Part shown: in pieces, positions 2,725-48,202 of the stretch
How the letters are laid out: each line of letters begins with the position of its first letter
Numbering within the stretch: position 1 is the stretch's first letter
DNA from: Spironucleus salmonicida
Lineage: Eukaryota
Assembly: GCF_000497125.1 (NCBI RefSeq)
Contig: NC_090601.1
Span: 1,488,001 to 1,552,000 of the forward strand
DNA length: 64,000 nt
Direction: 5' to 3'
Position numbers and translations under genes: made by a program
Notes under the pieces: generated by a model
What the model was told of the DNA's origin: nothing
What the model saw: the letters and a program-made list of their open reading frames with translations, nothing else
Databases searched by the model: none

Positions 2725-5553
2725 TCATCCTATAGCTCCATCAATTAAATTATTCATGAACCCTTAAGTATTAAATTTTTCTTATATAGGTTTAGTTTTC
2801 TTCTTCATTATCTGTGCAGATTTCTACAATGAACTCTATAGAGAAGGCCCAAACATTATAAATATGTTAATGAAATCATCAAATGTTAGTCCTTTTCCTT
2901 CAGAATAGTATATCTTTATTTTATTAAAATCTTCATTTATTTAATCTAATTTTATAACTTCGTTATCCAGCTGATCTTAATATGTGTTTATTAAACTTTT
3001 AAGATTCTAACCTATTTTTGAGCTATCAATATCGATTTTCTTCAGTCTTTACTGTAAAGATAAAAGATATGCAGATTATTCTTAATAATTAAACTATTTT
3101 AGTTTTAATAAAATGTCATTTATTTAACCTATTTCTTATTATTGTTGAACAGTTAGCATTTTAGTAATGATAGTGAGCAATGTATCTCCAGAATTAGTTT
3201 TTAAATCTATTAGTCGAACCAGTGTCTTTAACTTAAATCCTTATGCGTTACCTCTATTATTATTACAATTTAAAAGGTTTCCAACGGATAATATTTATTT
3301 AAGAAAATATAACCATGATTAATTATTTTATAACTCAGATAATAATTATTTAAATGTATAAGTAAAATCTTGTAAAATGATAAACTCTTCCCTAAAATTT
3401 ATAGAAAATAACCAATTTTCTACATTTTATCTGATATTTTTGATACCTGATATTGCAAAAATAAATTACTCCGATTTATTATATAATGTTATGTTGTTCG
3501 TGCTTTTCATTGACTCTAGAACTAATTATATTTCCTCTGGATAGGGTAGAGCTAATAATAATGTATCAATACCATGTTCAAGTGGATCGAAATATTATGC
3601 GTTAATAATATTTTCTTTTATTTAAAAAAACGTTGATTTTAATTTATTCAAAGCTATTTCAATTTATTATGTTCTTTTTGAATCCAAAATCGATATAAGT
3701 TGCTTTTTCTATTCTAAGCATTACTATGTCTATATTTTTTCTTCTATGGCAAAATAATTAGATAAATCTTCAATTTATTTATCTGTGAATCTTATATCTT
3801 CCTATCCAATACTTCTCCATAAACTTTCTTACTTTATATCCTAATCTTTTGTTTTTTCCCATTATAATGGTTTTGTTTTGCAAGTTGATTTATTAACAAA
3901 TAATTTTTAAAATTTCAATTTACAGGGTTAAGCTATACCACCAGGAGGTGGCGGAGGAAGCATACCACCAGGAGGTGGAGGAGGAAGCATACCACCAGGA
4001 GGTGGCGGAGGAAGCATACCACCAGGAGGTGGCGGAGTAAGCATACCACCAGGAGGTGGAGGAGGAAGCATACCACCAGGAGGTGGCGGAGGAAGCATAC
4101 CACCAGGAGGTGGAGGAGGAAGCATACCACCAGGAGGTGGCGGAGGAAGCATACCACCAGGAGGTGGAGGAGGAAGCATACCACCAGGAGGTGGAGGAGG
4201 AAGCATACCACCAGGAGGTGGAGGAGGAAGCATACCACCAGGAGATATTAATACACCTTTCTATTCTAATTATGCTTTAAATTATTGTATTTCTCTTATT
4301 AAATCTCGATTTTATTTTTCGATCCCTGCAATGATAAAATCTTTTTCTCTAATAACTACATCAATTTTTGTAATAGCTGTCATTTCATCTTCAGTAGCCA
4401 ACCTAACACTGTTAAAGTCAACATCACCAACCCGTTCCACTAATTCATCTATTCCTGTATACTTAGATTTCGCTGTAATATAGCCCCATTAATCCTATGC
4501 TGATTTGAGGCATATTTTCCTAAACGCATTTCGTATAAAATCAGACTGTGAATCTGCAGAAATTGATGCCTTTATAGCCAATTACTCAGTGGAAATATTA
4601 TCATAATCCTCAATCTCAGGATAAAAATTGAAATTAATGAGAATTTTGATGCATTTTACAGCCTTCGCAAAAACTATGTCGCCTTTCAGATCATCGTCAG
4701 CTAGTGTTTTTTAGCTCTCGAACAGCCACTAAATGTCGAATTCCTAATCTTCTTTCAGGTAACACCCAAACTAGTTATACCTTATCCTAGAGTTCAAAAT
4801 CGCAACAACTGCAGCTTTCAGCTTCTCCTAGATCTCAGTAAACCCCCCTTGCACCAGCTCGCCCTGGACCTTGGGGTCTGCCGTGATTATCCGCTAAATA
4901 ATCAACAGACTGTTCAGAATGTCGTCAATGTTGTGATTTTCTGCTCCATACTGCAAGCTCACCACCAGTGCCTGGAAGCGCCCGTAGCTGAAGTAGATCT
5001 GCCGTAGGCTCCCTGAAATGGCCCCTGCACTGCTTCCGCTACCGAAAATGCAGCATGCGGTCAGGATCAGCAGTGAGTTCTACCGTATACCATCCATAGT
5101 GCTGCCGAGCAGGCTCGCGAGCTGCCGTAGAAGGCCGAAATTGCCGCAAATGAACCGGACCCCGGACTCGCAGTCAGCCAGGCCATGCAGAGCCTCCAGG
5201 GTGAGCAGTAGCGCTTCGAAATCTGCAGCGTTTTGCGCCAGAAATACGAAGTCTGCGAGCGCGTCTAGGCCGTTCTCAGTGATGAAGCGCTGTCGGAATC
5301 CCGGTGCGCGGCAGGATAACGCAAGCTATGCGAGAACATGTGTGGCAGGAAAATTATTTACCCGTGCCCGCTTCAGGGCGCGGATTGCCTGGGGTGCGTC
5401 CAGATTCGAGGCATCGCCTGCGTGCTGTTCTATAAAGCGGACCTGCTGACTAGGTGATTGATACTTCGCCTTGATCTTATTCTGGGCATCCGGTGCTAGC
5501 TGTAAGTTGTCGAGTGTACGTTGGAAGAAAAATGAGATATCATTATCATTCAT
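2725..5553 (-). CDS. Formin (N-terminal region, FH1, FH2; 942 aa)
   Basis: Polyproline FH1 followed by FH2 motifs KPLQWEK and GNLLNCNNNRGNAQGFKLKTL. ATG 5553 and TGA 2725 are in frame. Confidence 0.92.
3937..4242. repeat. 27-bp tandem repeat, 11 units, encoding (MLPPPPPGG)n, the formin FH1 domain
   Basis: Unit ACCACCAGGAGGTGG(A/C)GGAGGAAGCAT is directly visible. Confidence 0.97.
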
Positions 5554-6781: not shown

Positions 6782-7627
6782 TCAGTTCATCCTTAAATGA
6801 GGTACAATTCTTTCAGCTATGAACTTCTGGTTAGTTGTGTAATCTCCGTGGTGTAAATTCGTTTCTTCAAATATGACTCTTTTTTATTCTACCATTGATC
6901 TTAGACCAAAAGTATCAGTTTTATACTCTTCGCGATCCTGGTAAAGCTAAATATCCGAATCTGATCCTTCTTTCCATACTCCAAAAAAGGCACTCTACCA
7001 CGGAGAAATGACTTCATCAATAGGTCCACCAAATAATACAATTTTATCGACATACATAAAGTTAATTTTTCGTTAAATATTGTAATCTCTTATGTTGTGA
7101 ATAAAAGGCAAAGACGCTGCTTTTTTAGCATATGCTTTTAATTTATATGGATTTCTCCAGTATTATGCAGGAGATAAGCGAGACTAAACAAATCCTTTAT
7201 ACTAAAAGTAAAATAATAACTTCTAAACGAAAGTAGGTAAATAATTACCATGGCATTTAGATTTTACACCACAGAAGAACCCACGTTATGGTCCGGATAA
7301 AGAAATAAATCTTACCATAGGTGCTGCCTTATGGTTATATTCTTCTAGCATTGCTCTAATTAAATAACCTCCTTAACTATGTCCAACACCAATGTATCCA
7401 TTTTAAGTAATTGGATGTTCGCTTATACACTCTGATAAAAGTCTTATTTAGTGTGATATTTCCATAAAAATAGAATCCCATCTGCCATTTCCAACCTCAC
7501 AATTAATTACAATAACATTTTCAATTTCAGACTGTATAGTATCTCTTATAATTTCCATATAATGTGCAGATGAATCAAACCCATGCATAATTACAATAGG
7601 ATATTATGCTATCAGGACGACTAACAT
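6782..7627 (-). CDS. Palmitoyl-protein thioesterase (281 aa)
   Basis: PIVIMHGFD, nucleophile elbow GVGHSQGG, FISLSGPQRG, QYWRNP, DEVISPWQS. Confidence 0.93.
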
Positions 7628-11565: not shown

Positions 11566-12495
11566 ATGAGAAGCGTTATACTGTCGAATAATAATTAGTT
11601 GACAAAAAATAGACTTCAAATAACTAGTAAATAACCAAATTTTGATATAACTACACTTAATATTTAAGAATAACTCAATTTTTTACAATGTATTGATAAT
11701 AATATACCGACAGCGTTATTACTCACTTTAAAAAGTCTTAACATCGAAAATTAAATCCTAATAGACAAAAATCTGTATGGATCTCTGTTTCACCGACTCC
11801 ATTTACTAGATCTCGACCAGACTCAAAATTTGATATAAAACTTGATTTCTACGCCACCAACTTCGCTCCATTAGGTAAATATCATTTCATCACTGGTCCC
11901 GCACCCTCTAAATGACTCATTGGAAATAGATAGGTTCATTATAAATTCTTGGCTTGCACCGTTCCCCAAAAATGCTCTAAATCTGATTTCCAAGCTCTCA
12001 GATAACTACATGTTGTCAGAAACATCATTTTTCAACGCGCTAAAATTTGCAGAAGACGAGCTTCCAAGAAACGCATTAGAATCGCTCACAGCGCTTCATT
12101 TGCTCGCTTACGAGGGCCGCGGATTTTCTGATTTCGCCAGAATCGCTCAGATTGCAATTCAATATTTGTTTTCCACTTCTTATTTAGTAATCACGAAAAC
12201 GTTCCACTTCATCACTGCATTCATCTTTTCTTTTTCAGATTTTACCCACGAAATCGAAAATTCAATTCAAAATTGGAATTTCATTCCCACAATTTCGGCA
12301 ACAATCGAAATCTGCAGTAAAAATTACGAAGCCGCGACCGCGTTTTGCGAGTGTTTGAAAGCAGTTTTGGAGGCATCCGAGCCCGAATTCTGCCGTTTTC
12401 GTGAGATTGGAAAGGGTATTTTATCGAATTTTGAATCCATTTTTTACGCCAACGAGGACCTGAACTTTAGCGATCTGCTCAACTGGTTCGCGTGA
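11566..12495 (+). CDS. Hypothetical helical protein (309 aa)
   Basis: Code-6 frame extends the 11920-12495 ORF back to ATG 11566. Confidence 0.75.
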
Positions 12496-12496
12496 C

Positions 12497-13258
12497 TCAT
12501 TTTTCGTCGTTTTTCGCCTTTCCCTTCTCACGGCAGAACGCCCTTATCGTACAGTCTGCGCACTTTGGCCCCTTGGCAAAGCACCAATTTTGGCCGAAAC
12601 CGACCAACAGCTCGTTGATTTGGCCCCACTGGGCCTCTGGGATCCAGCTTTCTAGCTCCTCGCCGACCTTATCTGGCTTCTCGCTCAAATCGGCGTTTCC
12701 GGCCCAGCCGAGGCGCTGCGCGATGCGGCAGACGTGCGTGTCGACGGAAATTCCGGCGTTCTGGCCGTAGCAGACTGCGAGGGTGATTTTTGCCATTTTC
12801 ATGCCGATGCCTGGCAGGGCCAGCAGGGCTGCCAGCGAGTCGGGGACGTCCGAATCGTGCGTTTTAGTGAGAATTTCAGCTATTTTGTGCAGATAGACAG
12901 CTTTCTTCTTGTAGAAACCGACGGGGTAGATGAGCCGTTCGAGGGCGTCAGGGGCCTCCGCCAGCACGTTCGGGACGGTGAGCCGGTGCGTTTCGCGCAA
13001 TTTCATTGAATTCCCATCAAATACAGTTTTCTGGTCGAATTTGCAGCCCAAAAACTCGTCCAATCGGTTAATAGCGGTGGCTGTTATCGGGTCCTTCGTC
13101 TAGGACGAAAGCAGGAGCGCAACCAGGTAGCGGAAACGACCATCTTTAGTCTCGTTTGTGTCAGAAAGGCAATGTGCACCATACTGGTCGACTTCAGGCG
13201 TGCGGATGCTGCGCATTTTTCGGATTAGCGGAATTATTGACTCTAAGTTTCTTGACAT
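12497..13258 (-). CDS. NTH1: Endonuclease III (HhH-GPD DNA glycosylase with 4Fe-4S cluster; 253 aa)
   Basis: LLSSQTKD (Q encoded by TAG), LLALPGIGMKMA, ISVDTHVCRI, C-x6-C-x2-C-x5-C. Confidence 0.96.
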
Positions 13259-15666: not shown

Positions 15667-15846
15667 TGGAGATTAAAGAGTGATTGTAGGGATTATTTTG
15701 ATCTATAAATTAATTTTTTGGGAGAGGCTGATTTTTATACAGTAAATTTTTAATTATATAATTATTATATCAGAATATTAAGTAAATATTACCGATAGCT
15801 GGTTTCTTGTCTTCACGCCAAATTTTTAAGGTTCTCTCCTTCAAGA

Positions 15847-16278
15847 ATGGCTCGTACTAAGCATACAGCAAGAAAATCCACCTCTGCTACCAAGGCTCCC
15901 AGAAAGACTATCGCTCGTAAGGCAGCCCGTAAGACTGCTGGTACTGCCGGCGGTGTTAAGAAAACTCGTAGATCTAAGCAGGGTGCAGTCGCTACTCGTG
16001 AGATCAAGAAGTATTAGAAGTCAACTGAACTTTTGATCAGAAAGCTCCCATTTTCTAAGCTTGTCCGTGAACTTGTTACAAATTATAACAAGAACGACGT
16101 TCGTTTCCAAGGACTCGCCATACAGGCTCTCCAGGAAGCTTCTGAAAACTATCTCATCAACCTCTTTGTCGACACCCAGATGTGTGCCGAGCACGCTAAA
16201 CGTGTCACTATCATGCAGCCCGACATGGAGCTCGCTACCAGAATTGGTAAGCGTGCCCAGCCCGACCACAAGAAGTGA
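15847..16278 (+). CDS. H3: Histone H3, diplomonad type (143 aa)
   Basis: [20 protein letters not shown]...[15 protein letters not shown] (Q encoded by TAG)...HAKRVTIM. Confidence 0.98.
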
Positions 16279-16771
16279 GTTTGAATTCATAATTAATTAA
16301 TATTTTATATTGTATAATTTTTTAAATTGCATATATTTTTCCCAGAGTACTCTATTATCTTAAATACAAAAAGAAAGTAATAATAAAAACAATAATATTA
16401 CCTTAAAATATTTTTAAAATATTAATGAATTCTACTTTCTCTCATTTTTAGAATAAATTATCATAAATAAATTTGGATAATATTGTGTTTTGTATTTTTA
16501 AGATTTATCAAATCTTCACGAACCACAAATCAAAAAATTTTACGAAATTTTAAAAATCGCTATACTGTAGTATATTATGTTAAATATTAATGTGGAAAGA
16601 TTTTCGTTTATGGTATCGTTTGGATTATCACTGAAATTAAAAGATTTCTTACTATTTAATACATAATACTATAAATATATTTTTTGTACTTATGAAAATA
16701 TATATTATTATATTGAAAAACGACTATAAATTTAACACTCCTAAGAAAGGAATTTCCGTTTCACTTAATAT

Positions 16772-17212
16772 ATGGCTAGAGTAAAAAATACTATCTCTCG
16801 TTCTGGAGCTCGTAAAGGTATCAAGGCTCCTCGTAAGACAATCGTTGCCAAAAAGGTAATTGCCCGCAAGTCAGTCTCTGACAAGACCGTAAAGGCTCAC
16901 CGTCGTTCTAGATAGGGTGTAGTTGCTGATCGTGAAATTAGACGTATGCAAAAAGATACTAACTGTGTTATCCCACGTAATCCTTTTGCCAGACTTGTCC
17001 GTGCTGTTGCTCAGGATTATGGTAGTGCTGAAATCCGTTTCTAGGGTTAGGCTCTTCAGGCTCTCTAGGAAGCTGCCGAAGCTGTTTTAATCAGAACATT
17101 GTCTGATTCTTAATTGCTTGCTCAACATGCTCATAGAGTAACCATAATGGAGAAGGATGTTTAACTCTATATTACTATCACAAGACCCGCATGGGCTCTC
17201 TCTATGAAGTGA
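16772..17212 (+). CDS. H3B: Histone H3 variant, H3B-like (146 aa)
   Basis: KAPRKTIV, IRFQGQALQALQEAAE, HAHRVTIMEKDVQLY...RPAW, resembling Giardia H3B. Confidence 0.88.
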
Positions 17213-21914: not shown

Positions 21915-22661
21915 TCACTTGCATGGATATTTACCTTCGCTTAAATCACAATAGGCACGACGAACAAGACCAAATTCCTTAATAAAGGGGTTTATATTTC
22001 CTTATATTTCCTCTATTCTCATTGCCTATTAATTTTAAAGATCAGTTGCTGGGAATAACAGATCCCATTCAATCATATCATCAATTAAAGTAAAAGTTTT
22101 CTTAAGAGATTCAAATTCGTTTGGATATCTAACATAAAAATAAGCTACAGCTCTAGCTGTATCACCTTTTTAAATATCTCTAGGTTCGAATCGATTTCTT
22201 TTATCAAGAATAGACCAGTTTTCTCGATCTACAGGTTTCTGCGTTACTATTTAACGATTTAATCCATAATATTTTTAAGCAAATTCATCTGGTACATACT
22301 AGAATGGATAATTCGAACGGTCATTATTAGTTACGTTCCAAGAGATTTTGCAATGATAAAGGTCACTTACCATAGGTTCTTTCTTGGCGAAAAATGACTA
22401 CGGAATCGTATGTTCGCAGTTTAAGTCTTTTGCTTTATTGCATTATGTATTCATAGAATCATAAAGGCATTCCATTCGTATGCCTGAGTAAATATCATAA
22501 ATTGCGTTATCAAATGGATCATTCATGATATAGCCATACAGCTATTATCTACCACGATTATATCCTAGTTGTTTATAATTTATACCAGTTATGGGTGTCA
22601 AAGCAGCGCGTAGTTGTTAACCAGAAAACTCAGGAAAGTATTTTTAGAGTAAAAGTATCAT
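21915..22661 (-). CDS. Secreted endonuclease I family (His-Me) nuclease (248 aa)
   Basis: NCEHTIPQS, SDLYH, NNDRSNYPF, FEPRDIQKGDTARAVAYFYVRY, QGNINPFI. Confidence 0.92.
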
Positions 22662-23150
22662 TTTTAGTTGATTTTTATTATTATAAAATATAAAACATAA
22701 ATTTAGGGAAGTAGTTTTTATTTACTGTTTTTTTTAAATTAAGTCAATTATATTATTAAATGAGATTAAAAATATATAAACGAATATAGAAGATAAAATT
22801 AAAAATACTCGAAAGCATAAGAGATTTGTATTTTCATATTTATTTCAACTGTCGATTTTATAAATTATATATTAGGCACAGATTCATGTTTACAGTATTT
22901 CATATTTAAAATTATGTTCATATAATTACATAGAAGTATAGTATCACGTGTTGCTTACGCTCTTGCTAGTGGCGGTAAACGGGAACCAGATGTGCCAGGT
23001 CGCGCGCCGGGCCGAGGCGTCGCGGGGGCTCGGCGAGGAGGTGCCGCAGCACCTGGTACGCCCCGACAACCTACGCTTCGTGCGCTTCGACTACGCCGCC
23101 CAGCCGCGCTTCTGCCTGGAATGACCACTTTGTATACTCCCCACTCCGGA

Positions 23151-23309
23151 ATGGCCTGACGCAGGAGAACCGCCCTGGCCGAGAAGAGGAAGCAGGAGCA
23201 GGCGGCCAAGACACAGACACAGCCGGCCCAGAAGTAGCCGCCCAAGGAGCCAAAGGCCGCCAGGCCCGCGGCGCGGAGGGTGGCCAAGAAGGCAGACCGC
23301 GCCGAATGA
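23151..23309 (+). pseudogene. Basic K/R/A-rich mini-ORF with TGA at codon 3 (cassette copy 1)
   Basis: ATG GCC TGA CGC AGG AGA... reads MA*RRRTALAEKRKQEQAAK...KKADRAE*, preceded by TATACTCCCCACTCC. Confidence 0.5.
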
Positions 23310-23367
23310 ACGCGCGGGCTCGGTGAGCGAGCGGGGGAAGCATGCGCCCCGGGAGTGAGAGCCTCAG

Positions 23368-23658
23368 TCACTTGCCAGTCATCGTGCGCCGCAGCTGCAC
23401 GTACCGCTGCTCCGTGTCAGCGTGCTCCTGCTCCAGCTCCTGGATCTGCAGTTCCAGGTCCGGGAAGTCCTCGTCCAGCTCCGCCGCGATCGCGTCCTCC
23501 CCGAACTCCGCCTCCATGGGGGCGATCACGTCGAAGTAGAACTGGTACACCTGGTGCTGCGTCATCCGCGGGAAGTTGTCGCTGCGCCAGATGCGGCGCT
23601 CCTCCGCCGAGAGGTGCTGGTACTCCGCCGTGTTCGGTGCGTAGTCCACGTGCTCCAT
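23368..23658 (-). CDS. Acidic 96-aa hypothetical protein (cassette copy 1)
   Basis: MEHVDYAPNT...RRTMTGK*, strong G/C third-position bias, ends AAG-TGA. Confidence 0.8.
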   Translation of the reverse strand: MEHVDYAPNTAEYQHLSAEERRIWRSDNFPRMTQHQVYQFYFDVIAPMEAEFGEDAIAAELDEDFPDLELQIQELEQEHADTEQRYVQLRRTMTGK

Positions 23659-23934
23659 TCTTGGGTAGTATATTTCATTATATATTATAACACTATTTTT
23701 AACGATTCCTAAACTAACCTTTAAAAAAGAATAACCTATCTACTATAAAAAAATATTGTAAATCTAAACTACTTAGCTTTCATTCTAATAAATATTAAAC
23801 AAAACTAATTCCTCATATAATATCAAATAACAAGTATTTATATTTCCAAAATTCAAGTTTTCCACTTTTTTGATTTTTATATATCATGTAATTAGTATAT
23901 AATATTTATATTTATGCATTTTCACTTCTCATAA

Positions 23935-24891
23935 ATGAATATGAATATTTATGAAGAAATCGCTATTACCAATAGATTAATTTCAAAAGAGCTCATCCTA
24001 GCGATTTAAAGCATTAGTATGGAGAGTTTGCCCTGCCATTAAGAACTTGAGGAAAGCCTATTTAACCATTTAGAGCCTTAACAGAAGATATTTTTCAACT
24101 CGTTGCCATATTCAAGCTAGGTAATACTAGATATAGAAATAAGTATCATAAATCATTAGACGTTTCCCGTAGATAACATATTACTGGAAAGTTTAAGCTG
24201 TAAAAATATTAGAGAATGTTCTTATTTAGACTTCCACAAATTACCATATAGTTAAGAAATCATGTAGGATTTATAGTAGAACATAGGAGAGATTTAACCA
24301 GTTGATAATGTTTTAAAGGCATAATTTTTTTAATATTTGCCTTTTGACGCTGAGATAATCTGCTCCTTAAAGACCGAGCAAAAGCCAAAATAGTCTTCTT
24401 AAACGCAGCTATTTGCAGTATAAGCTGCTCCAGTTTAAGAATCTTTTGATGACGAAGAATTGGATTTCGATTAATTGCCGAATAATTTACAACTCATTTG
24501 TTAGCTTAAGTCGCTGTTTAAAAGCAACAATAGTTATGATAAAATGTATAGTACTTTAAGTTCGTTTGCATCAGATGAACTTATTTAGACTATTAAGAAG
24601 CCTAATCCAAAGTAAATTTTAAATTTCAACGCACCAGTCTCGAGCTTGCTAATTAGCCAGATCAAGATACGCGACTATATGAATATTTAGGATCTGCCGA
24701 TTTCGGAAATTCTCGTTACCGACCTGTATTCAAATTCTAAAAACATGTTATTGTAGCTAAATCAGGTTGTTGCTAGTTAGATTAGTTAAATAGATCCCCC
24801 CTTTAGTTAGTAGCTAATAGATTCAATTAAAGAAATAGTGGATTAGGATAGCAGAATATTATTAGCTATTCAAAGGTTAATAAGTTAGTGA
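23935..24891 (+). CDS. Hypothetical protein (318 aa)
   Basis: Open code-6 frame ending TAG-TGA. Confidence 0.75.
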
Positions 24892-24928
24892 TGTTTTTAT
24901 ATAGTATATAATATAATTACTTCTTAAA

Positions 24929-25159
24929 ATGATAATAAAAATTTAGCTGAATACCGGCCATATTATCAATGTTGACATTGATATTAAGGACACAGTTGTT
25001 TAAATAAAAGAGAAAATATTCAAGCAAGAAGGATTGCATCCTGCATAGTAAAAACTTATTCATTCTGGTTAATTGCTTCAAGGGTCAAAAACTGCAGAGG
25101 AACTTTAATTACGTGCAGGAACAACATTATAATTAGTTGTCAACTTGCGTGGTGGATGA
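24929..25159 (+). CDS. RUB1: Ubiquitin-like modifier NEDD8/Rub1 (76 aa)
   Basis: MIIKIQLNTG...EGLHPAQQKLIHSG...LVVNLRGG*. Confidence 0.88.
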
Positions 25160-25318
25160 GGTTATTACTTTTATTTTTAATAATGTTATCGTTTTGTATA
25201 CTCACTATTTATTCCATCTACATATTATCAGTATACTATATAATAATATAGTATGTGTACATCATATTCCGTTTACTAGAGTTATTATATATATATTAAG
25301 CATATCACGAATCATAAA

Positions 25319-25813
25319 ATGAACCCATCCTAATCACTTTTTGAACTGGAAACCCGTCTCGCCGATCCAAAAATAGACATAGTATCATTGAATAATATAT
25401 TATCAATAGCAAAAAGTTTGCCATTACCAGATTCATCGTAGATTTCACAAAGAATTTTTTAGGATAGGTTGTCATAAGTGATTTTAGACTGTGAAATGTA
25501 GCTAAATACATTTAAGGTAATAGATTAAAAGTTTAACTAAGTTTCTTCAAATAATTATTAGTCATTTAATGAAACAAATCGCATATTCGATGAAACTATT
25601 GAAATGGCAGGAAATGCATAGAGTATTTTAAATCACTAAACAGCAATATTAAAAAATATACATTTAAAAGTTTTAAGTGTTGCTGGAAAGTTAGAGATAG
25701 GTGGAAAGACAGTCGACTAAATTCTTCGCATAGAGCAATTAGGAGGGTTTATAAGAGCAATCGCCGTAGGTTTAATTATAGTTATTTGGTTATGCATAAA
25801 AATTTTAATGTGA
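25319..25813 (+). CDS. Qb-SNARE, membrin/Bos1-like (164 aa)
   Basis: SNARE motif DETIEMAGNAQSILNHQTAILKNIHLKVLSVAGKL followed by a C-terminal TM segment. Confidence 0.78.
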
Positions 25814-26035
25814 GCGATATGTATTTTATTATTTTAGGGTATATTTGTTAAGTAAACAATATTTATATAAATGCACGTTAACATAAAATTATAATAAATA
25901 TTGTAAACTGTAGAATTAGATGATATAACATGTTTTTTGATATGATTACTTATTTTATGTACATAACTGAGACAGTAACATAAAATAAGATTATTATATA
26001 ATATTATATATATAAATTTTTCGCTCCGTTTTCAA

Positions 26036-26269
26036 ATGGAATCTGTTGACTAAGAAATGTAAGCACTAGAAGCCTTTGTTAAAAGGCTCGAATTCTTGGT
26101 TTCTCAGAAGGAACTTGTAGCTAAAGAATTAGAAAGTACTTATGGTCAGATGAAAGATGAAATTAATATGCGTAAGTAAGCTAAATACGGAAATACTTCA
26201 GGTATATTCATTGTTTCAGCTTTAGCTCTTGCCTGTGTTGTTGTAGGTCTAAAGTGGATTATTAATTGA
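26036..26269 (+). CDS. Small tail-anchored coiled-coil protein (77 aa)
   Basis: Coiled coil followed by GIFIVSALALACVVVGLKWIIN*. Confidence 0.7.
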
Positions 26270-26362
26270 TACAAAATGATTATTATTTAATTTTAAAATT
26301 TTAAAAACTGATATTATTTAATATTATAATATAAATAAATTCCGTTTCATTTCCACTTTACA

Positions 26363-29300
26363 ATGGCTTATGTCCCACCTGGCGGTCGTCCTACTACTGC
26401 ATATGTTCCCCCTTAAGGAAGAACAATAAATACTGAGGCTTAATCTACTACTTTTGTCCCAACAGGAGCTAATCAACCTGTTTTAGAAGCAATGACTCTT
26501 TTCTAGCATCAACCAGTGAAAGTAGAAAAGAAAGAGTTAACAATTCAAGAATTATCTACGGAGTATCTAAAATAATTCTAATCTGCCAAGTTTTCTACTA
26601 AACAAAAACCTAAGGTAATATCTGAATAAACTTAAAAGGCATTAACTTCAAGAAATGTTGAGAGAAAGCAAAAGGCTCCTAAAAATATGGAGCTTACTGA
26701 TGCTGGAAAATCTAACTTATTATAACTTCATAATGTTGCATTAGATATTTAAAAGGATATTGACGAGAAAAAACCTATTCATGTTATATTATAAAACTAC
26801 ATTCTTTACACGCAGAATACTCATTTGCCAATGTATATAGATACATATAGATCTGATATTATTATAACAACAATGAGTTTTATAGGTTTACTTTTCGAAT
26901 CACGTTAAGTCAATATTATATACAAAGTATTAGATACTGTTAAAGGTGTTTATTTCAAGTTTTTCCCATAAATCTAAGAAGAAATTCTTAATTTTATACT
27001 AGTTAAGACATTAGATCTAGTAACATTACTTCCAGAGAAATATACTGCAAAAATTTAGAATTCCCTTATCTTTTATAATGAAAAACTTTCTGGCGAAGAA
27101 GATACTATTTTCTTTATTTTCTCACTTACATTTAAAGTTATGTAGTTCGCGGCTACATGTTTCTACCCAACCGTATTCTGTGAGGCTTGTAGTAAGCTTA
27201 TGATGATTTCAGTTACTTTCGCTCGTTACGAAGAATTGTAGTAAATTATTGACACAGCTGAGTAGTTTTCTTGGGAAGATAATTTTTATGATGATTACTC
27301 AAGTGCTTATGTATAAAAGTTAGTATATTTACTTAGAGCAGATATGATTTCAGCTCTTCTAGCTGTTGCTGATTATGAAAATTGTTATAAACTTTTAGTA
27401 TCTACTAGCTCTCTAGTCAAAGTAAATTTAGAGCAACAGTTTGTTGATATTGATGATATTCATATTGAATTATTAAGATTAGTTAAACTTAGTATCAAAT
27501 ATTTTAGTTTAACTAATCAATATCTTTACTAGGCACAATGCTAAGAAAGCTTTATTAGACTAAGTATCGCGTTCAATATCGATGTTGATCAGCTCTAAAA
27601 CTATGCTGATGAAGCTGTTATCTTAATTAACTGCCTTCCACATATTTTGAGCAAAAATTTCGTGCCTAACTTCATGCTAACAGCCAACTATAATTTCTCT
27701 TTAACAACATAGGTTTAAGACATCTCTTATATGTTCATTTCGGACACTATTGCACCATCTTAAGATATTTACAACTTAATGTCCTTAAAACAAGGCGTTA
27801 GAAGCAAAATTTACGGATCTGTGAATTCGTACGTAAAAATTTCTAATGAATTAATTAGCTTTTTAACAGTGTTCTGTCAATTTCCTCAATACTTTTAAGA
27901 TCCAGAAATGTATTTACAATCAGCTAAAGCAGCATTATAATCCTACTCCGCTTCAAAATTCACCATCAGCCTAGTCGCTTTCGCTGATAAAATAACAGAG
28001 AAGTTCTTCACTAACGCAATTGCTCTTTTCTTGATTTAAAGCATCCAAACTGGCAAAAACAACCTGAAAATAGACGAAATTTCGCAATTTGTTCTCACTT
28101 AACTATAATCTCTCTATCCAAACGACGAAATCAACGTTCCGACGTCATCACTCGCGCTCGTTAGGCTCATTTTACCGCTTGTTAAGCTCCCAATTTTCGC
28201 AAATTCAAACATCAAATTCTCCCTAATTTCACGCGAATTCACGTTCAGATAAGCGAAACTGATCAAAACGAAGCAAGAATTTGATGAAATGAACGTCAAA
28301 TTTACGCAAATTTCAGATTTCAAGCCCCAGCAGTCAAAATTCTACAATTCCGGAATTCTCTGCGACGCCCTGAAACTCGTCAAACAGACCCACAAACCAG
28401 CCCATTTGACCGCTTTGAATTTTGCAGAAATCATCGTCAAAAACAAGCTTCAAATCGCTGAAACGGAGCTCAAAAAGAGGAAAGAATTCGAGGAAAAGCA
28501 AAATGCCGAAATGAAGCTTTCAGAGCAGCGCGATAAAGAGCTCAAAAAGTTGGCTGAAATCAAGCAGGAGGCAGACAAAATGAAACGTGTTTTTACTGAT
28601 ATAATCACGAAGCATATTCTTAGCAGAGCCAACGACGACGAGGAACTCTCAGTGTACTTAAAATCGATCAATCTGTCGAATTTGAAACCTATTTAGTGGC
28701 AGGGAGAACTTATGAAAAAAGAAGCAGAATTCAACAGAAAACGGCTCCAGGACAGGTAGAATTTGCTCAACAGTCAGACCCAAAAAGTGGAAGCGTAGAT
28801 CTATTATATCAGATAACTTCAAATTGAAGAGCGTAAAAATACTTACATGACATAGGTGGAAGGGTTGAATCAGATGCTCAAAGAAATCGTCCCAATCCGT
28901 TTTGAGCAGGAAACTGCGAGCTTTGAGGCGAGTAAAACGCTCAAACTCCACTTAGCTGATATAGGAGATTATCAATTACTTGTGACAGAGCAGAAAACAA
29001 AATTCGATGAATATTACGACGAAGAGGCTGCGATTTTCGAGCAAAAAGTTGAAGAATTGGCAGCCAAACTGAAAGCCGAAAGCGACGCTGAAAAGGCAAA
29101 AATTTTGTCCTAAGAGGAAGCAGAAAAGTAGAAAGCTGAATTGGAATTGGAGAAAATGAGGCAGAAGAGCTTGTTAGAAGCGAAAAAGGTAGCCGAGACT
29201 AAAGTTTACAGACCTGGACAGGGCAGTGGCGCGTATGTTCCAGGTGGAAACGGAAGTATATACAGACCTGGGCAAGGGAGCGGAAATCCGTATGTGCCGA

Positions 29301-29389
29301 AATCTACAGTTATAAAGCCGGCCCAGGGCGGTGCGTATGTACCATAGGGGAAACCTGGGATTTACGTACCACCTGATGCCAGAAAGTGA
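26363..29389 (+). CDS. eIF3 subunit A-like protein, divergent (1008 aa)
   Basis: One frame links the track ORFs at 27344, 28289, 28856 and 29141. Helical region, charged coiled coil (IYYIRQLQIEERK), terminal YVP repeats. The gene is well supported; the product call is tentative. Confidence 0.6.
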
Positions 29390-29777
29390 GCGGTTGGTAT
29401 AATTTTTTGGGGTCTGGGGCAGGGGAGCAGAATTAGCGTTCGCTGTTGAAGTTCTAAATGTTTATGTTGTAAATAACAGCTTTCTAAGTGATTTAGAGAT
29501 TTGGTGTATTATTCAAATTTAATCGCAAGGAATCGTCGGTGCTTCGAAACCAGCTGTTGACAGTACATCACATAGTGAATTAAATATAAAGGATAGCGTA
29601 TTGTAAAGCTAGTTAATATGAAATCCACTAGAAAGAAAAAATAATAGCGAAAAACTGAAGTTTTGGTAGATTGACGTACCCCGAAAATCTCGCAAATATC
29701 TTTATTATATATCGTTATCTGAAATGTACTATTCCATAAAATTATATATTCAAGAATATCATTTATACTACCCAAGA

Positions 29778-30068
29778 ATGGAGCACGTGGACTACGCACC
29801 GAACACGGCGGAGTACCAGCACCTCTCGGCGGAGGAGCGCCGCATCTGGCGCAGCGACAACTTCCCGCGGATGACGCAGCACCAGGTGTACCAGTTCTAC
29901 TTCGACGTGATCGCCCCCATGGAGGCGGAGTTCGGGGAGGACGCGATCGCGGCGGAGCTGGACGAGGACTTCCCGGACCTGGAACTGCAGATCCAGGAGC
30001 TGGAGCAGGAGCACGCTGACACGGAGCAGCGGTACGTGCAGCTGCGGCGCACGATGACTGGCAAGTGA
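29778..30068 (+). CDS. Acidic 96-aa hypothetical protein (cassette copy 2)
   Basis: Protein identical to that of 23368-23658. Confidence 0.8.
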   Translation: MEHVDYAPNTAEYQHLSAEERRIWRSDNFPRMTQHQVYQFYFDVIAPMEAEFGEDAIAAELDEDFPDLELQIQELEQEHADTEQRYVQLRRTMTGK

Positions 30069-30126
30069 CTGAGGCTCTCACTCCCGGGGCGCATGCTTCC
30101 CCCGCTCGCTCACCGAGCCCGCGCGT

Positions 30127-30285
30127 TCATTCGGCGCGGTCTGCCTTCTTGGCCACCCTCCGCGCCGCGGGCCTGGCGGCCTTTGGCTCCTTGGGCGGCT
30201 ACTTCTGGACCGGCTGTGTCTGTGTCTTGGCCGCCTGCTCCTGCTTCCTCTTCTCGGCCAGGGCGGTTCTCCTGCGTCAGGCCAT
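30127..30285 (-). pseudogene. Basic mini-ORF with TGA at codon 3 (cassette copy 2)
   Basis: Same as 23151-23309 except one Ala/Val change. Confidence 0.5.
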
Positions 30286-30311
30286 TCCGGAGTGGGGAGT
30301 ATACAAAGTGG

Positions 30312-31079
30312 TCATTCCAGGCAGAAGCGCGGCTGGGCGGCGTAGTCGAAGCGCACGAAGCGTAGGTTGTCGGGGCGTACCAGGTGCTGCGGCACCTCCT
30401 CGCCGAGCCCCCGCGACGCCTCGGCCCGGCGCGCGACCTGGCACATCTGGTTCCCGTTTACCGCCACTAGCAATAGAGTGAATAGTGATTGAGCGTACCT
30501 TGCGAGTTCTCTAGCTATGGCAAGTTGCATCAAAACAGTACGGGATCGATAATCATCATCTTAATTAAAATACTATTATAAATAAGCATCCTTAACAAAA
30601 AAAGCTACATTTTGCATCAGAAACAGTATAGTGTATTTAAACATTTGCATGCAAAGCTAAATAAAAGAAAGTCGAATTGTTCGTGTGAAAGTTCCTGCAG
30701 CTGCTAATAATATTACCATGATTAATCCAACGTTAAGAAGGATTGATGTGTTTTCTAACTGTGGTAGTCTCACTTGAGAACCGGATGAAAGCTCTAGAAT
30801 CAATAGAACAGTTTAAAATGAGACGCAAAGTAGAATAACTATAGGCTCATAAAACTTAGATATACTTTAAAATGTAGATAACTAGATCCTATATGAAAAG
30901 TTCATGATGATAGGGGCAAAAATAATGGGTATGACGATTGATATTGAAATAATAACTATATAAAAATACTTTACATATGCAGCTGACTGTACAGTAGTTA
31001 TATATTACAAAATATCTTGGAATTTATTTGGGAGTTACTAGTAATAGTCCCTATAATGTTCGTTTATAATTTCACTCAT
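30312..31079 (-). CDS. Multi-pass membrane protein (255 aa) whose last ~54 codons lie inside the GC-rich cassette
   Basis: Continuous code-6 frame MSEIINEHY...YIVIISISIVIPIIFAPII...LLLVAVNGNQMCQ...PRFCLE* with several hydrophobic segments. Confidence 0.75.
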
Positions 31080-46420: not shown

Positions 46421-46602
46421 AAGTAGTTGAAGATGCTGAATTATGTACTTTCGTTTGGGATCTATGGAATTGTGATAGTTTGTTCAGTTAAGGGTTTACT
46501 GAAAGTGTAAATTTGGAGTATTTACCGAATAAAAAGGTAAATTAATGATAATGATTAAAATTAGAGATTATAGTTATTAAACTCGGGTTTAGATTCCAGA
46601 AA

Positions 46603-47619
46603 TCACTCGTTCTGTAACAGACATTCGCAGCATCCATAGAGGCCAATGTTGTCCTGAAGAATAACGCTGATTCTTCTGTTTTTGACAATATGAGAGAGTC
46701 TACCCTTGTCATAAAGACCGTCCATAAACTTTTTGTTGACAAATGCATCCTTGAGAAGATCCATGTTCTTTGCCATGATACCACCAGCAATAAATATTTC
46801 AGATGGCAAGAAGCCAGCACAAAGGTCAGAAATAGAACGACCGTAGAAGTTGAAGAAAATAGCCATGATCTTCTTGAAGGTCTCGTCACCTTTGTTAGCA
46901 TTGATAGCAACGTGAGATGGCTGGTCATCTTCAGAAGCAGGAAGCGAGATTAGCTCAGAAACCATTTTGTCAGAACCACCAGTAACACCAAGATAAGCAT
47001 TAAGCTGGGCTTCGGTTTTACCCATGAAGAACTGGGCAATGCAAGCAATACCATTTCCAGATACGAAACGCTCATAAGATATGTGCTAGGAGTTGTGTTT
47101 TTTCTGCATAAAAGTCACTAATTCATATTCAATAGGGCATGATGGACCAAAACGAAGATGTCCACCTTCACAAGGGAAAACAGTTGTGCCAGCTACGTAA
47201 CCTACACCAAGACCAGTACCTGCACCAAGATATAATTTAACACCCGTATGTAAGGGATTTGGAACAATAATATCGACTGCATCATTGGTGACGAATCTGG
47301 AAATAATCCACCATCCGATTGCCTGGAAGTCGTTAATGAATTTGACAGAGAAGCCCAGAGTAGAAGCAAATTCCTCAGAGTTATACTTGTATGCAGTATT
47401 TTCATTAGTCAATGTACAGTGTTTACCATCAACTGGTCCAGCCATAGCCAAACAGCAAGATTTTATACCTTTGATGCTATGTTTAGAAATAAAATCTTAA
47501 ATAGCAGAAATAAGAGTGGGGTGTTCACGAGTAACATAATACTCAGTATGAATCATATCTTTGCCATTTATAGAAGACAGACGAAGGTTAGTACCACCAA
47601 TATCACCTGTGATATACAT
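46603..47619 (-). CDS. glk: Glucokinase, bacterial Glk family (338 aa)
   Basis: GDIGGTNLRL, AMAGPV, FINDFQA, LGAGTGLGV, CEGGH, ERFVSGNGI, IFIAGGI. Confidence 0.95.
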
Positions 47620-48202
47620 TTTAGTGAAGTGGTTGATTTGATTTACTTATATTACATAATATTATATCGATTTGATAATATTAGTTATTGTCAGTTATTA
47701 ATTAATAATGTTTTGTCAAAATAACGCGATATAATGAAATTATAGAAAAACTCATTATATAATTAAATGGCTTATATGGATTATACTTATACCTACCAAA
47801 TAATATACTTATTTTATTAATATTTAAAGGAGATACTAATTAAAACACCTTGTTTATTTTGTTCATAAATACTAATAAAACATATTAACATAACTTATAA
47901 ACTGTAACTTTTGTCCCACTAATATTATTTGTATTATCTCAAATATATATATGCTTATCCTAATGACACATAATAATAACTGTTTTCTGTTAAGTAATAA
48001 ATATCGATGCAAGATTTACACTGATCAATTTAACCTTTATTAAAAATAGTCAAAGATTAAAGGTTGCAATATTTATAAATAAAATAATATTAAACAACCA
48101 ATCTTAAATACTATAGTTATACTGCAAATTTTCATCCTAAAATAATGAGAACTATTTCATAATATCTAGTAATTGATAAAATGAATTTAAATCAATCAGT
48201 AT

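What the first reader, a model, noticed from the sequence alone, without database searches (positions are those of the whole stretch)
22963..30473. 710-bp GC-rich cassette duplicated in inverted orientation around five host genes
Seen: 22963-23672 is the reverse complement of 29764-30473 with one visible SNP, and is roughly 70% GC by eye in an AT-rich genome. The copies enclose 6.1 kb holding a hypothetical gene, RUB1, a Qb-SNARE, a tail-anchored protein and the eIF3a-like gene, all on plus. No transposase, reverse transcriptase, terminal inverted repeats, poly(A) or convincing target duplication is visible. Inference: an undescribed non-autonomous mobile cassette or a segmental duplicate kept identical by conversion. 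Recombination between the copies would invert the enclosed block.
Basis: partly seen in the sequence, partly recalled or inferred. Interest (0 to 1): 0.8.

Follow-up and report, generated by a model that had tools for sequence, protein, structure and literature searches.

The report
GC-rich inverted duplicate of host genes
In the AT-rich genome of a fish-parasite protist, a 710-base piece of ordinary host genes sits in two mirror-image copies that are almost identical and very rich in G and C, most likely because the copies keep correcting each other with a bias towards G and C; it is not a mobile element, and similar pairs are common in this genome.

Summary
The repeat is real: arms 22963-23672 and 29764-30473, 710 nt, one mismatch, 66.5% GC against 30.7% for the window. 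Only two copies were found in the genome, and public contigs show the arm at twice flank depth with all four junctions. It is not a mobile cassette. The arm holds a complete 96-codon gene of a native Spironucleus salmonicida family and the last 53 codons of an annotated 255-residue gene that reads in from the right flank. Third-position GC in that gene jumps from 0.25 to 0.90 at the arm edge. Family members in near-identical inverted pairs have GC3s 0.96 and 0.91; singletons 0.46, 0.29, 0.25. Best reading: an inverted segmental duplicate kept identical and GC-enriched by GC-biased arm-to-arm gene conversion (0.65; inferred, no outgroup). Against it: single-copy genes here reach GC3 0.94-0.96, and some 100%-identical duplicates stay AT-rich. 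Flipping the 6.1-kb block was not testable and would change no gene. Four such inverted pairs lie in 272 kb of this contig, and this scan already reported the same pattern at eight other places in this genome.

The parts
22963..23672 (.). Left arm of the inverted duplicate (710 nt, 66.5% GC); probably the daughter copy, as it carries the 255-aa gene's 3' end without its 5' part
   Evidence: (left match covers only the last 58 of 202 query residues)
29764..30473 (.). Right arm; continuous with the 255-aa gene in the right flank
29778..30068 (+). 96-aa acidic protein gene, right copy; GC3s 87 of 91; native lineage-restricted family; stop lies in AGTGA
23368..23658 (-). 96-aa protein gene, left copy, identical
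30312..31079 (-). Annotated 255-aa hypothetical protein with hydrophobic segments (also filed as a 197-aa form); last 53 codons lie in the arm; GC3s 48 of 195 outside, 47 of 52 inside
   Evidence: a contig of run X5 (RNA by guess) spans 30210-31078
22963..23124 (+). Orphan copy of the last 53 codons and stop of the 255-aa gene
23125..23367 (+). 243 nt between the two stops (30069-30311 in the right arm), 68% GC; codon-like pattern in two shifted frames, probably a former coding tail of the 255-aa gene; holds the single mismatch (23227/30209)
23673..29763 (.). Single-copy 6091-nt spacer
23914..24891 (+). Spacer gene 1: 325-aa ORF, no family (true start may be later)
24929..25159 (+). Spacer gene 2: RUB1/NEDD8-like protein
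25319..25813 (+). Spacer gene 3: SNARE-like, C-terminal hydrophobic anchor
   Evidence: weak hits, below cut-off
26036..26269 (+). Spacer gene 4: 77-aa protein with hydrophobic C-terminus
26363..29389 (+). Spacer gene 5: annotated 1008-aa protein; eIF3a identity not confirmed

Best explanation
An old inverted segmental duplication copied a 710-nt piece of host DNA (the whole 96-aa gene with 14 nt upstream, and the 3' end of the convergent 255-aa gene) to a site 6.1 kb away (shown: anatomy, two copies). Since then the arms have repeatedly repaired from each other, which keeps them 99.9% identical (inferred). Mismatch repair in these events favours G/C, so over time exactly the shared stretch moved from about 25% to 90-96% GC at synonymous sites, while the unshared part of the same gene stayed AT-rich (step shown; cause inferred). 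The repeat has no function of its own beyond a second copy of the 96-aa gene. A crossover between the arms would flip the spacer, but each 96-aa gene keeps a promoter from inside the spacer and the 255-aa gene keeps an equivalent 3' end, so no gene would be switched (inferred from anatomy).
For: (1) Inside one annotated gene, GC3s is 47 of 52 in the arm and 48 of 195 outside; Fisher p 1e-17 against the 32 of 138 of the 197-aa form; the likelihood change-point is 30467 (best three: 30467, 30458, 30473) and the arm edge is 30473. The 25-codon step (7 of 24 to 22 of 24, difference 0.62) is larger than the largest step (0.48) at any of 7126 positions in 12 comparison ORFs that I chose mostly for GC-rich patches. 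(2) Within the 96-aa family, both members that sit in >=99% inverted pairs are GC-rich (87 of 91; 122 of 134), the three singletons are not (58 of 126, 35 of 122, 32 of 128). (3) In the second pair (C6:1383625-1384076 / 1391939-1392390) 3 of 4 mismatches fall in the first 21 of 452 nt, all at third codon positions (binomial 4e-4): frayed edge, homogenised interior. (4) In 272 kb of contig C6, 200-nt bins in >=97% local duplicates average 0.48 GC (86 bins) against 0.31 (1226 bins without a local duplicate; 48 of 1360 mixed bins left out); GC>=0.65 in 7 of 86 versus 1 of 1226 (bins are not independent). (5) PMC9509377 reports 44.7% GC in duplicated regions against 30.7% elsewhere in this species (may rest on the same DNA, so not independent). 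(6) GC-biased arm-to-arm conversion is shown for primate X palindromes (PMC8981503).
Against: High GC does not need a present twin here: 50-codon windows reach GC3 0.96 in a kinase gene whose closest paralog is 74% identical and 0.94 in a single-copy endonuclease I gene; a 67% GC patch at C6:1.5606 Mb and the window's 58% patches at about 4800-5500 and 12450-13100 have no duplicate. A twin does not guarantee high GC: about 3 kb of a C2 inverted pair is 100% identical at 13-23% GC, and local identity and GC do not correlate over 185 windows of 14 pairs (rho -0.04). No outgroup: neither protein has a relative outside this species, so the direction of substitutions was not measured. No significant older homology beyond the arm ends (40 of 150 and 97 of 150 shuffles reach the observed score).
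Confidence: 0.65

Rival explanations
1. A GC-rich patch arose first in single-copy DNA (for example at an allelic recombination hot spot) and was duplicated recently, possibly as the by-product of an inversion of the 6.1-kb block made by a staggered break; identity reflects youth, not conversion.
For: Single-copy genes reach GC3 0.94-0.96. One mismatch only and no decayed homology outside the arms. Two apparent frame shifts are shared by both arms, which is simplest if they predate the copy. The layout (gene intact at the right outer end, beheaded at the left) fits the staggered-break model of PMC1885836 (abstract read). PMC8981503 itself suggests GC-rich DNA may form palindromes more readily.
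Against: Single-copy patches ramp over hundreds of bases and never step by more than 0.48 in the 12 ORFs tested, whereas the step here is 0.62 and lies within 6 nt of the arm edge. The second family pair shows a frayed edge.
Confidence: 0.2
2. Chimera: a GC-rich piece from elsewhere (lost or unassembled donor) was inserted twice, and the right insertion supplied a new C-terminus to the 255-aa gene.
For: Would give a sharp step at the junction. No homolog of the 255-aa protein exists to show that both parts belong together.
Against: The frame runs without a break through a hydrophobic stretch across the junction and the GC3-rich frame inside the arm is the gene's own frame; the two codons outside the edge encode the same residues in both copies with third-position differences (weak). 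Depth is 2x, so no hidden third copy in run X1.
Confidence: 0.08
3. Non-autonomous mobile cassette, or a programmed invertible switch.
For: Sharp ends, foreign-looking composition, inverted orientation.
Against: Two copies; no TIR, target duplication or poly(A); content is host genes with AT-rich paralogs named as S. salmonicida hypothetical proteins; the paralogous pair has different ends and no shared DNA; an inversion would not change any gene.
Confidence: 0.05
4. Assembly artefact (one copy falsely duplicated).
For: Near-perfect identity; the DNA runs laid are one sample and may be the source.
Against: Arm unitig at 2x depth, four distinct junctions in contigs assembled independently from raw reads, and both letters of the mismatch seen (A in X1, G in X5 and X6).
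Confidence: 0.02

Closest known systems
Primate X-chromosome palindromes under GC-biased arm-to-arm gene conversion (PMC8981503; passages read)
   Same: Gene-bearing inverted arms over 99% identical, unique spacer, arms richer in GC than flanks.
   Different: Arms here are 0.7 kb, not up to over 1 Mb; the GC excess is about 36 points, not 4-5; one edge cuts through a working gene; the bias was measured with outgroups there and is only inferred here.
GC-rich patches and GC-rich duplicated regions of Spironucleus salmonicida (PMC1805757, passages and section 15 read; PMC9509377, parts 1-2 of 3 read)
   Same: Sharp 30%-to-70% GC shifts in native genes; duplicated regions at 44.7% GC against 30.7%; gene conversion suggested for surface-protein arrays.
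   Different: Those papers give no base-level mapping of a GC step to a duplicate edge and no test of conversion bias in the parts I read; the 2007 paper leaves the cause open; the 2022 count uses duplicates of 2 kb or more, which excludes this one.
Inverted duplications at inversion breakpoints made by staggered breaks (Drosophila; PMC1885836, abstract only)
   Same: Inverted copy of non-repetitive gene sequence flanking a block, with one truncated gene copy.
   Different: No outgroup synteny here to show that the block was inverted; that model says nothing on GC content.
Actively maintained long inverted repeats of gene pairs in Caenorhabditis (PMC1803023, abstract only)
   Same: Near-perfect gene-bearing inverted repeats whose symmetry seems maintained.
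   Different: Maintenance there was shown across species; not testable here.

Membership tests
Non-autonomous DNA transposon / MITE | Terminal inverted repeats on each copy | tested here: not met
   First and last 20 nt of each arm are unrelated
Non-autonomous DNA transposon / MITE | Target-site duplication | tested here: not met
   No direct repeat flanking either arm or the whole block
Non-autonomous DNA transposon / MITE | Many dispersed copies with shared ends | tested here: not met
   2 copies by genome search and by depth
Retroposed copy / SINE | Poly(A) tail, target duplication, single-transcript extent or RNA-gene origin | tested here: not met
   No poly(A) at either end; two convergent genes in the arm; no Rfam match
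Palindrome / inverted duplicate under gene conversion | Inverted arms over 99% identical around a unique spacer | tested here: met
   709 of 710 identical; spacer single copy
Palindrome / inverted duplicate under gene conversion | Arms richer in GC than flanks, also at synonymous sites of one gene | tested here: met
Palindrome / inverted duplicate under gene conversion | Arms older than their identity implies (within-species identity above between-species identity) | not testable with these tools
   No relatives held for this genome; no homologs outside the species; edge fraying seen only in the paralogous pair
Palindrome / inverted duplicate under gene conversion | Polarised substitutions biased AT to GC | not testable with these tools
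   No outgroup; paralogs are 19-35% identical
Invertible (phase-variation) segment | Both orientations present in a population | not testable with these tools
   All 8 listed runs are contigs, which cannot phase across 710 nt
Invertible (phase-variation) segment | Inversion changes a promoter-gene or gene-gene junction | tested here: not met
   From the ORF map: both 96-aa promoters lie in the spacer next to identical coding arms; the 255-aa gene's in-arm codons are identical in both arms

The most novel reading that the evidence does not exclude
In this diplomonad, conversion between gene-sized inverted copies is so frequent and so GC-biased that it drives synonymous sites close to saturation within base-sharp limits, and it also carries damage: frame shifts arising in the unselected, beheaded left copy were copied into the working 255-aa gene and cut off its former basic tail. 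Such pairs would then be a main source of the GC islands left unexplained since 2007 and a compact system to measure the bias directly.
Probability: 0.25. Interest if true: 0.6.

Novelty: new member of a known kind. Interest (0 to 1): 0.33.

Why it matters
If the best reading holds, the locus is a clean small example linking a known process (GC-biased gene conversion between duplicates) to the GC islands of Spironucleus, whose cause PMC1805757 left open. It offers two internal controls: a GC step inside one gene at the repeat edge, and one gene family with duplicated GC-rich and single AT-rich members. It also warns that GC-rich islands here are not evidence of foreign or mobile DNA. As a single locus it is ordinary for this genome: 4 inverted pairs of 97% identity or more lie in the 272 kb examined, and the scan holds at least 8 similar reports.

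Tried and rejected
Mobile element, retrocopy, structured RNA: rejected. Lateral transfer of the 96-aa gene: rejected; no relative outside the species and AT-rich native paralogs that use TAA/TAG for Gln. Function of the 96-aa protein: Pfam gives only HTH_70 below cut-off; the Atlas feature search gave bacterial hypothetical clusters at 0.90-0.92, some with HNH-fold toxin families on a minority of members, but no histidine is invariant in the five-member alignment, so I do not accept it. The 255-aa protein: no Pfam, no homolog among 1.84 billion representatives except its own 197-aa form, no usable Atlas hit. Older homology beyond the arm ends: not significant. Local identity versus GC within long duplicates: no correlation. 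A separate small gene in the 243 nt between the stops: the only ATG-led frame has an in-frame TGA in both arms, has no paralog, and 5 of 5 other arm-derived ORFs that I looked up are not in the protein collection; a selenocysteine reading was considered and not tested. Expression: no RNA holder listed; X5 and X6 are RNA only by guess, and contig depth cannot rank expression or phase the mismatch. Inversion isomers: no verdict. (duplicate search for L044) was not scored. Literature: no paper held 'Spironucleus' with 'GC-biased gene conversion', the five terms, or the four terms; the library lacks most subscription papers. No supplements were read; the annotation and additional files of PMC1805757 and PMC9509377 may bear on the novelty claim. 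PMC3916229: passages only.
Full report
OBSERVATION. The window holds one long inverted repeat; the other 5 of 6 pairs found are 30-54 nt at 72-78%. Base-by-base comparison gives arms at 22963-23672 and 29764-30473, 710 nt, with one mismatch (23227/30209) and 66.5% GC against 30.7% for the window. A DNA search of the whole genome returns these two places only, and the spacer and flanks have no near-identical copy (one 72% paralog of the neighbouring endonuclease I gene). In contigs of public run X1 the arm is one unitig of exactly 710 nt at depth 23.6, the spacer and the two outer flanks are at 12, 12 and 11.7, and all four junctions are present. X1 may be the source of this DNA and X3 is the same sample, so this excludes an assembly slip rather than giving independent support.

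ORGANISM AND GENES. ORFs open under NCBI code 6, and relatives of the arm's protein are named Spironucleus salmonicida hypothetical proteins.

WHAT THE ARM IS. It is host coding DNA on both strands. (a) A complete 96-codon gene starts 14 nt inside the inner end (29778-30068 +, 23368-23658 -); this exact protein is in public collections. Its stop lies in AGTGA, the stop-plus-polyadenylation signal described in PMC3916229 (passage read). A protein search of the genome finds three paralogs at 29-38% and a fourth lies beside one of them. (b) The outer 162 nt are the last 53 codons and stop of a 255-aa ORF (30312-31079 -) that reads in from the right flank; this exact protein is also in public collections, and a contig of run X5 (RNA by guess) runs from 30210 to 31078. 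The left arm carries the same codons with no 5' part, so the left arm is probably the daughter copy. (c) The 243 nt between the two stops are 68% GC. With a codon model trained on 7 GC-rich gene segments (1 of 8 dropped for being out of frame), the best frame steps from the gene's own frame to the next near 23120 and again near 23175; 64 and 8 of 5000 shuffles reach the scores of the two later segments, whose limits I chose after looking. The last segment has GC3 38 of 43. I read this as a former coding tail, now out of frame in both arms; contigs of all four runs agree with the reference there. This is inference.

NOT MOBILE. No terminal inverted repeat, target duplication or poly(A), no Rfam match, two copies, and host content. 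The paralogous pair shares no DNA or ends with this one.

THE GC STEP. In the 255-aa gene, GC3s is 47 of 52 inside the arm and 48 of 195 outside; the change-point estimate is 30467, 6 nt from the arm edge at 30473. Over 25 codons either side it goes from 7 of 24 to 22 of 24, a step of 0.62; the largest step at 7126 positions in 12 comparison ORFs is 0.48. In the 96-aa family, the window gene has GC3s 87 of 91. A 143-aa paralog has 122 of 134 and proved to lie in its own 452-nt, 99.1% inverted pair 8.3 kb apart. The three singletons have 58 of 126, 35 of 122 and 32 of 128. In that second pair 3 of 4 mismatches lie in the first 21 nt, at third positions, as expected if the interior is homogenised and the edge frays. 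In 272 kb of contig C6 there are 4 inverted pairs of 97% or more (GC 0.46-0.49, 0.54, 0.59, 0.66) and 3 direct pairs (0.37, 0.45, 0.45); bins in such duplicates average 0.48 GC against 0.31 (86 and 1226 of 1360 bins; 48 mixed bins dropped; duplicates outside the 272 kb not seen).

RESULTS AGAINST. High GC also occurs without a twin: 50-codon windows reach GC3 0.96 in a kinase gene with only a 74% paralog and 0.94 in a single-copy endonuclease I gene; a 67% patch at C6:1.5606 Mb and two 58% patches in the window are single copy. These ramp gradually, which may be allelic conversion hot spots or relics of lost pairs (inference). A twin can stay AT-rich: about 3 kb of a C2 inverted pair is 100% identical at 13-23% GC, and identity and GC do not correlate over 185 windows of 14 pairs. 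No older homology is detectable beyond the arm ends. No outgroup exists in the searched collections, so the direction of change is unmeasured.

MECHANISM. Shown: two inverted copies, host genes, a base-sharp GC step at the outer edge, a family contrast. Inferred: moving third positions from about 0.25 to over 0.9 takes many substitutions, and arms that stay 99.9% identical meanwhile must be exchanging sequence; GC-biased repair in those exchanges gives both results (0.65). The main rival is a GC patch that came first and was copied recently, perhaps with an inversion of the spacer by a staggered break as in PMC1885836 (abstract read) (0.2). A chimeric C-terminus (0.08), a mobile or switch element (0.05) and an artefact (0.02) follow. 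A crossover between the arms would flip the spacer, but both 96-aa promoters lie inside it next to identical coding arms and the 255-aa gene's in-arm codons are the same in both arms, so the flip would be silent. Whether it occurs could not be tested with contigs.

COMPARISON AND NOVELTY. It works like the primate X palindromes of PMC8981503 (passages read; I was led to this paper by earlier scan notes), but at 0.7 kb and with a far larger GC excess; the two defining tests that need an outgroup could not be run. For this species, PMC1805757 described sharp GC patches in native genes and left the cause open, and PMC9509377 reported duplicated regions at 44.7% GC against 30.7% and mentioned gene conversion for surface-protein arrays. 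Searches for the explicit link found no paper in the held library. My reading was written before the look-up of earlier findings, which returned 8 of 36 fitting notes, all with the same reading at other places in this genome; none lies near this window. These are AI notes, not support. Verdict: a real but ordinary member of a recurring class in this genome; new member of a known kind; interest 0.33. What this locus adds is the within-family contrast and the shared shifted-frame tail.

Noticed in passing
L021:4625-5079 and L039:2936-3390 (G000:C6:1383625-1384076 / 1391939-1392390): Second inverted pair (452 nt, 99.1%, 59% GC) holding a 143-aa paralog of the 96-aa gene; arms start at the ATG and end about 20 nt past the stop; a convergent singleton paralog (GC3s 0.46) abuts one arm.
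   Followed up: yes
L036/L037 (G000:C6:1353292-1369534): Nested inverted pairs: 514 nt at 99.6% (15.7 kb apart) around a pair of about 4.2 kb at 99.9-100% with a 2.8-kb spacer; 46-54% GC.
   Followed up: partly
window 46590-47620 and L020:4510-5540: Direct duplicate of a sugar-kinase-like gene (label from my reading of the sequence, not from a call), 96.9% identical, 56 kb apart, only 40% GC, with mosaic identity (92.5-100%).
   Followed up: partly
window 15830-16291 versus L014-L017 (C1): A gene at 48% GC in the window is 82% identical to four near-identical copies on C1 at 63-64% GC; probably a histone gene (not tested); a further single-versus-multicopy contrast.
   Followed up: partly
window 16692-17207: Histone-H3-like ORF (recognised by eye) with two 89% copies in a 5.4-kb inverted pair about 100 kb apart on C6 (L012/L013), which mixes 97-100% and 56-68% identical stretches.
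   Followed up: partly
L024/L025 (G000:C2:136925-148739): 5-kb inverted pair whose first 800 nt are 68-79% identical and whose remainder is 100% identical, much of it at 13-23% GC.
   Followed up: partly
window about 4800-5500 and 12450-13100; L040:4276-5200; L020:8328-9077; L049:8085-9372; L044:2700-4300; L032:4400-5200: GC-rich patches (55-67%) with gradual ramps inside genes; five were searched genome-wide and have no near-identical copy; L044 was not scored and L032 was not searched.
   Followed up: partly
window 3881-4298: Tandem array of a 27-nt unit at about 59% GC with a 92% relative on C3 (about 128.6-129.3 kb).
   Followed up: no
L035:575-3135: 2.5-kb tandem array with a period of about 33 nt multiples, 55-59% GC, sharp edges.
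   Followed up: no
window 21915-22661: Endonuclease I family gene (Pfam PF04231, E 4e-26) just left of the left arm, with an AT-rich paralog on C2 and a GC-rich single-copy paralog at L020:8328-9077.
   Followed up: partly
window 30209: Runs X5 and X6 (RNA by guess, another study) show mostly or only the left-arm letter at the mismatch; contigs cannot tell which arm it comes from.
   Followed up: no
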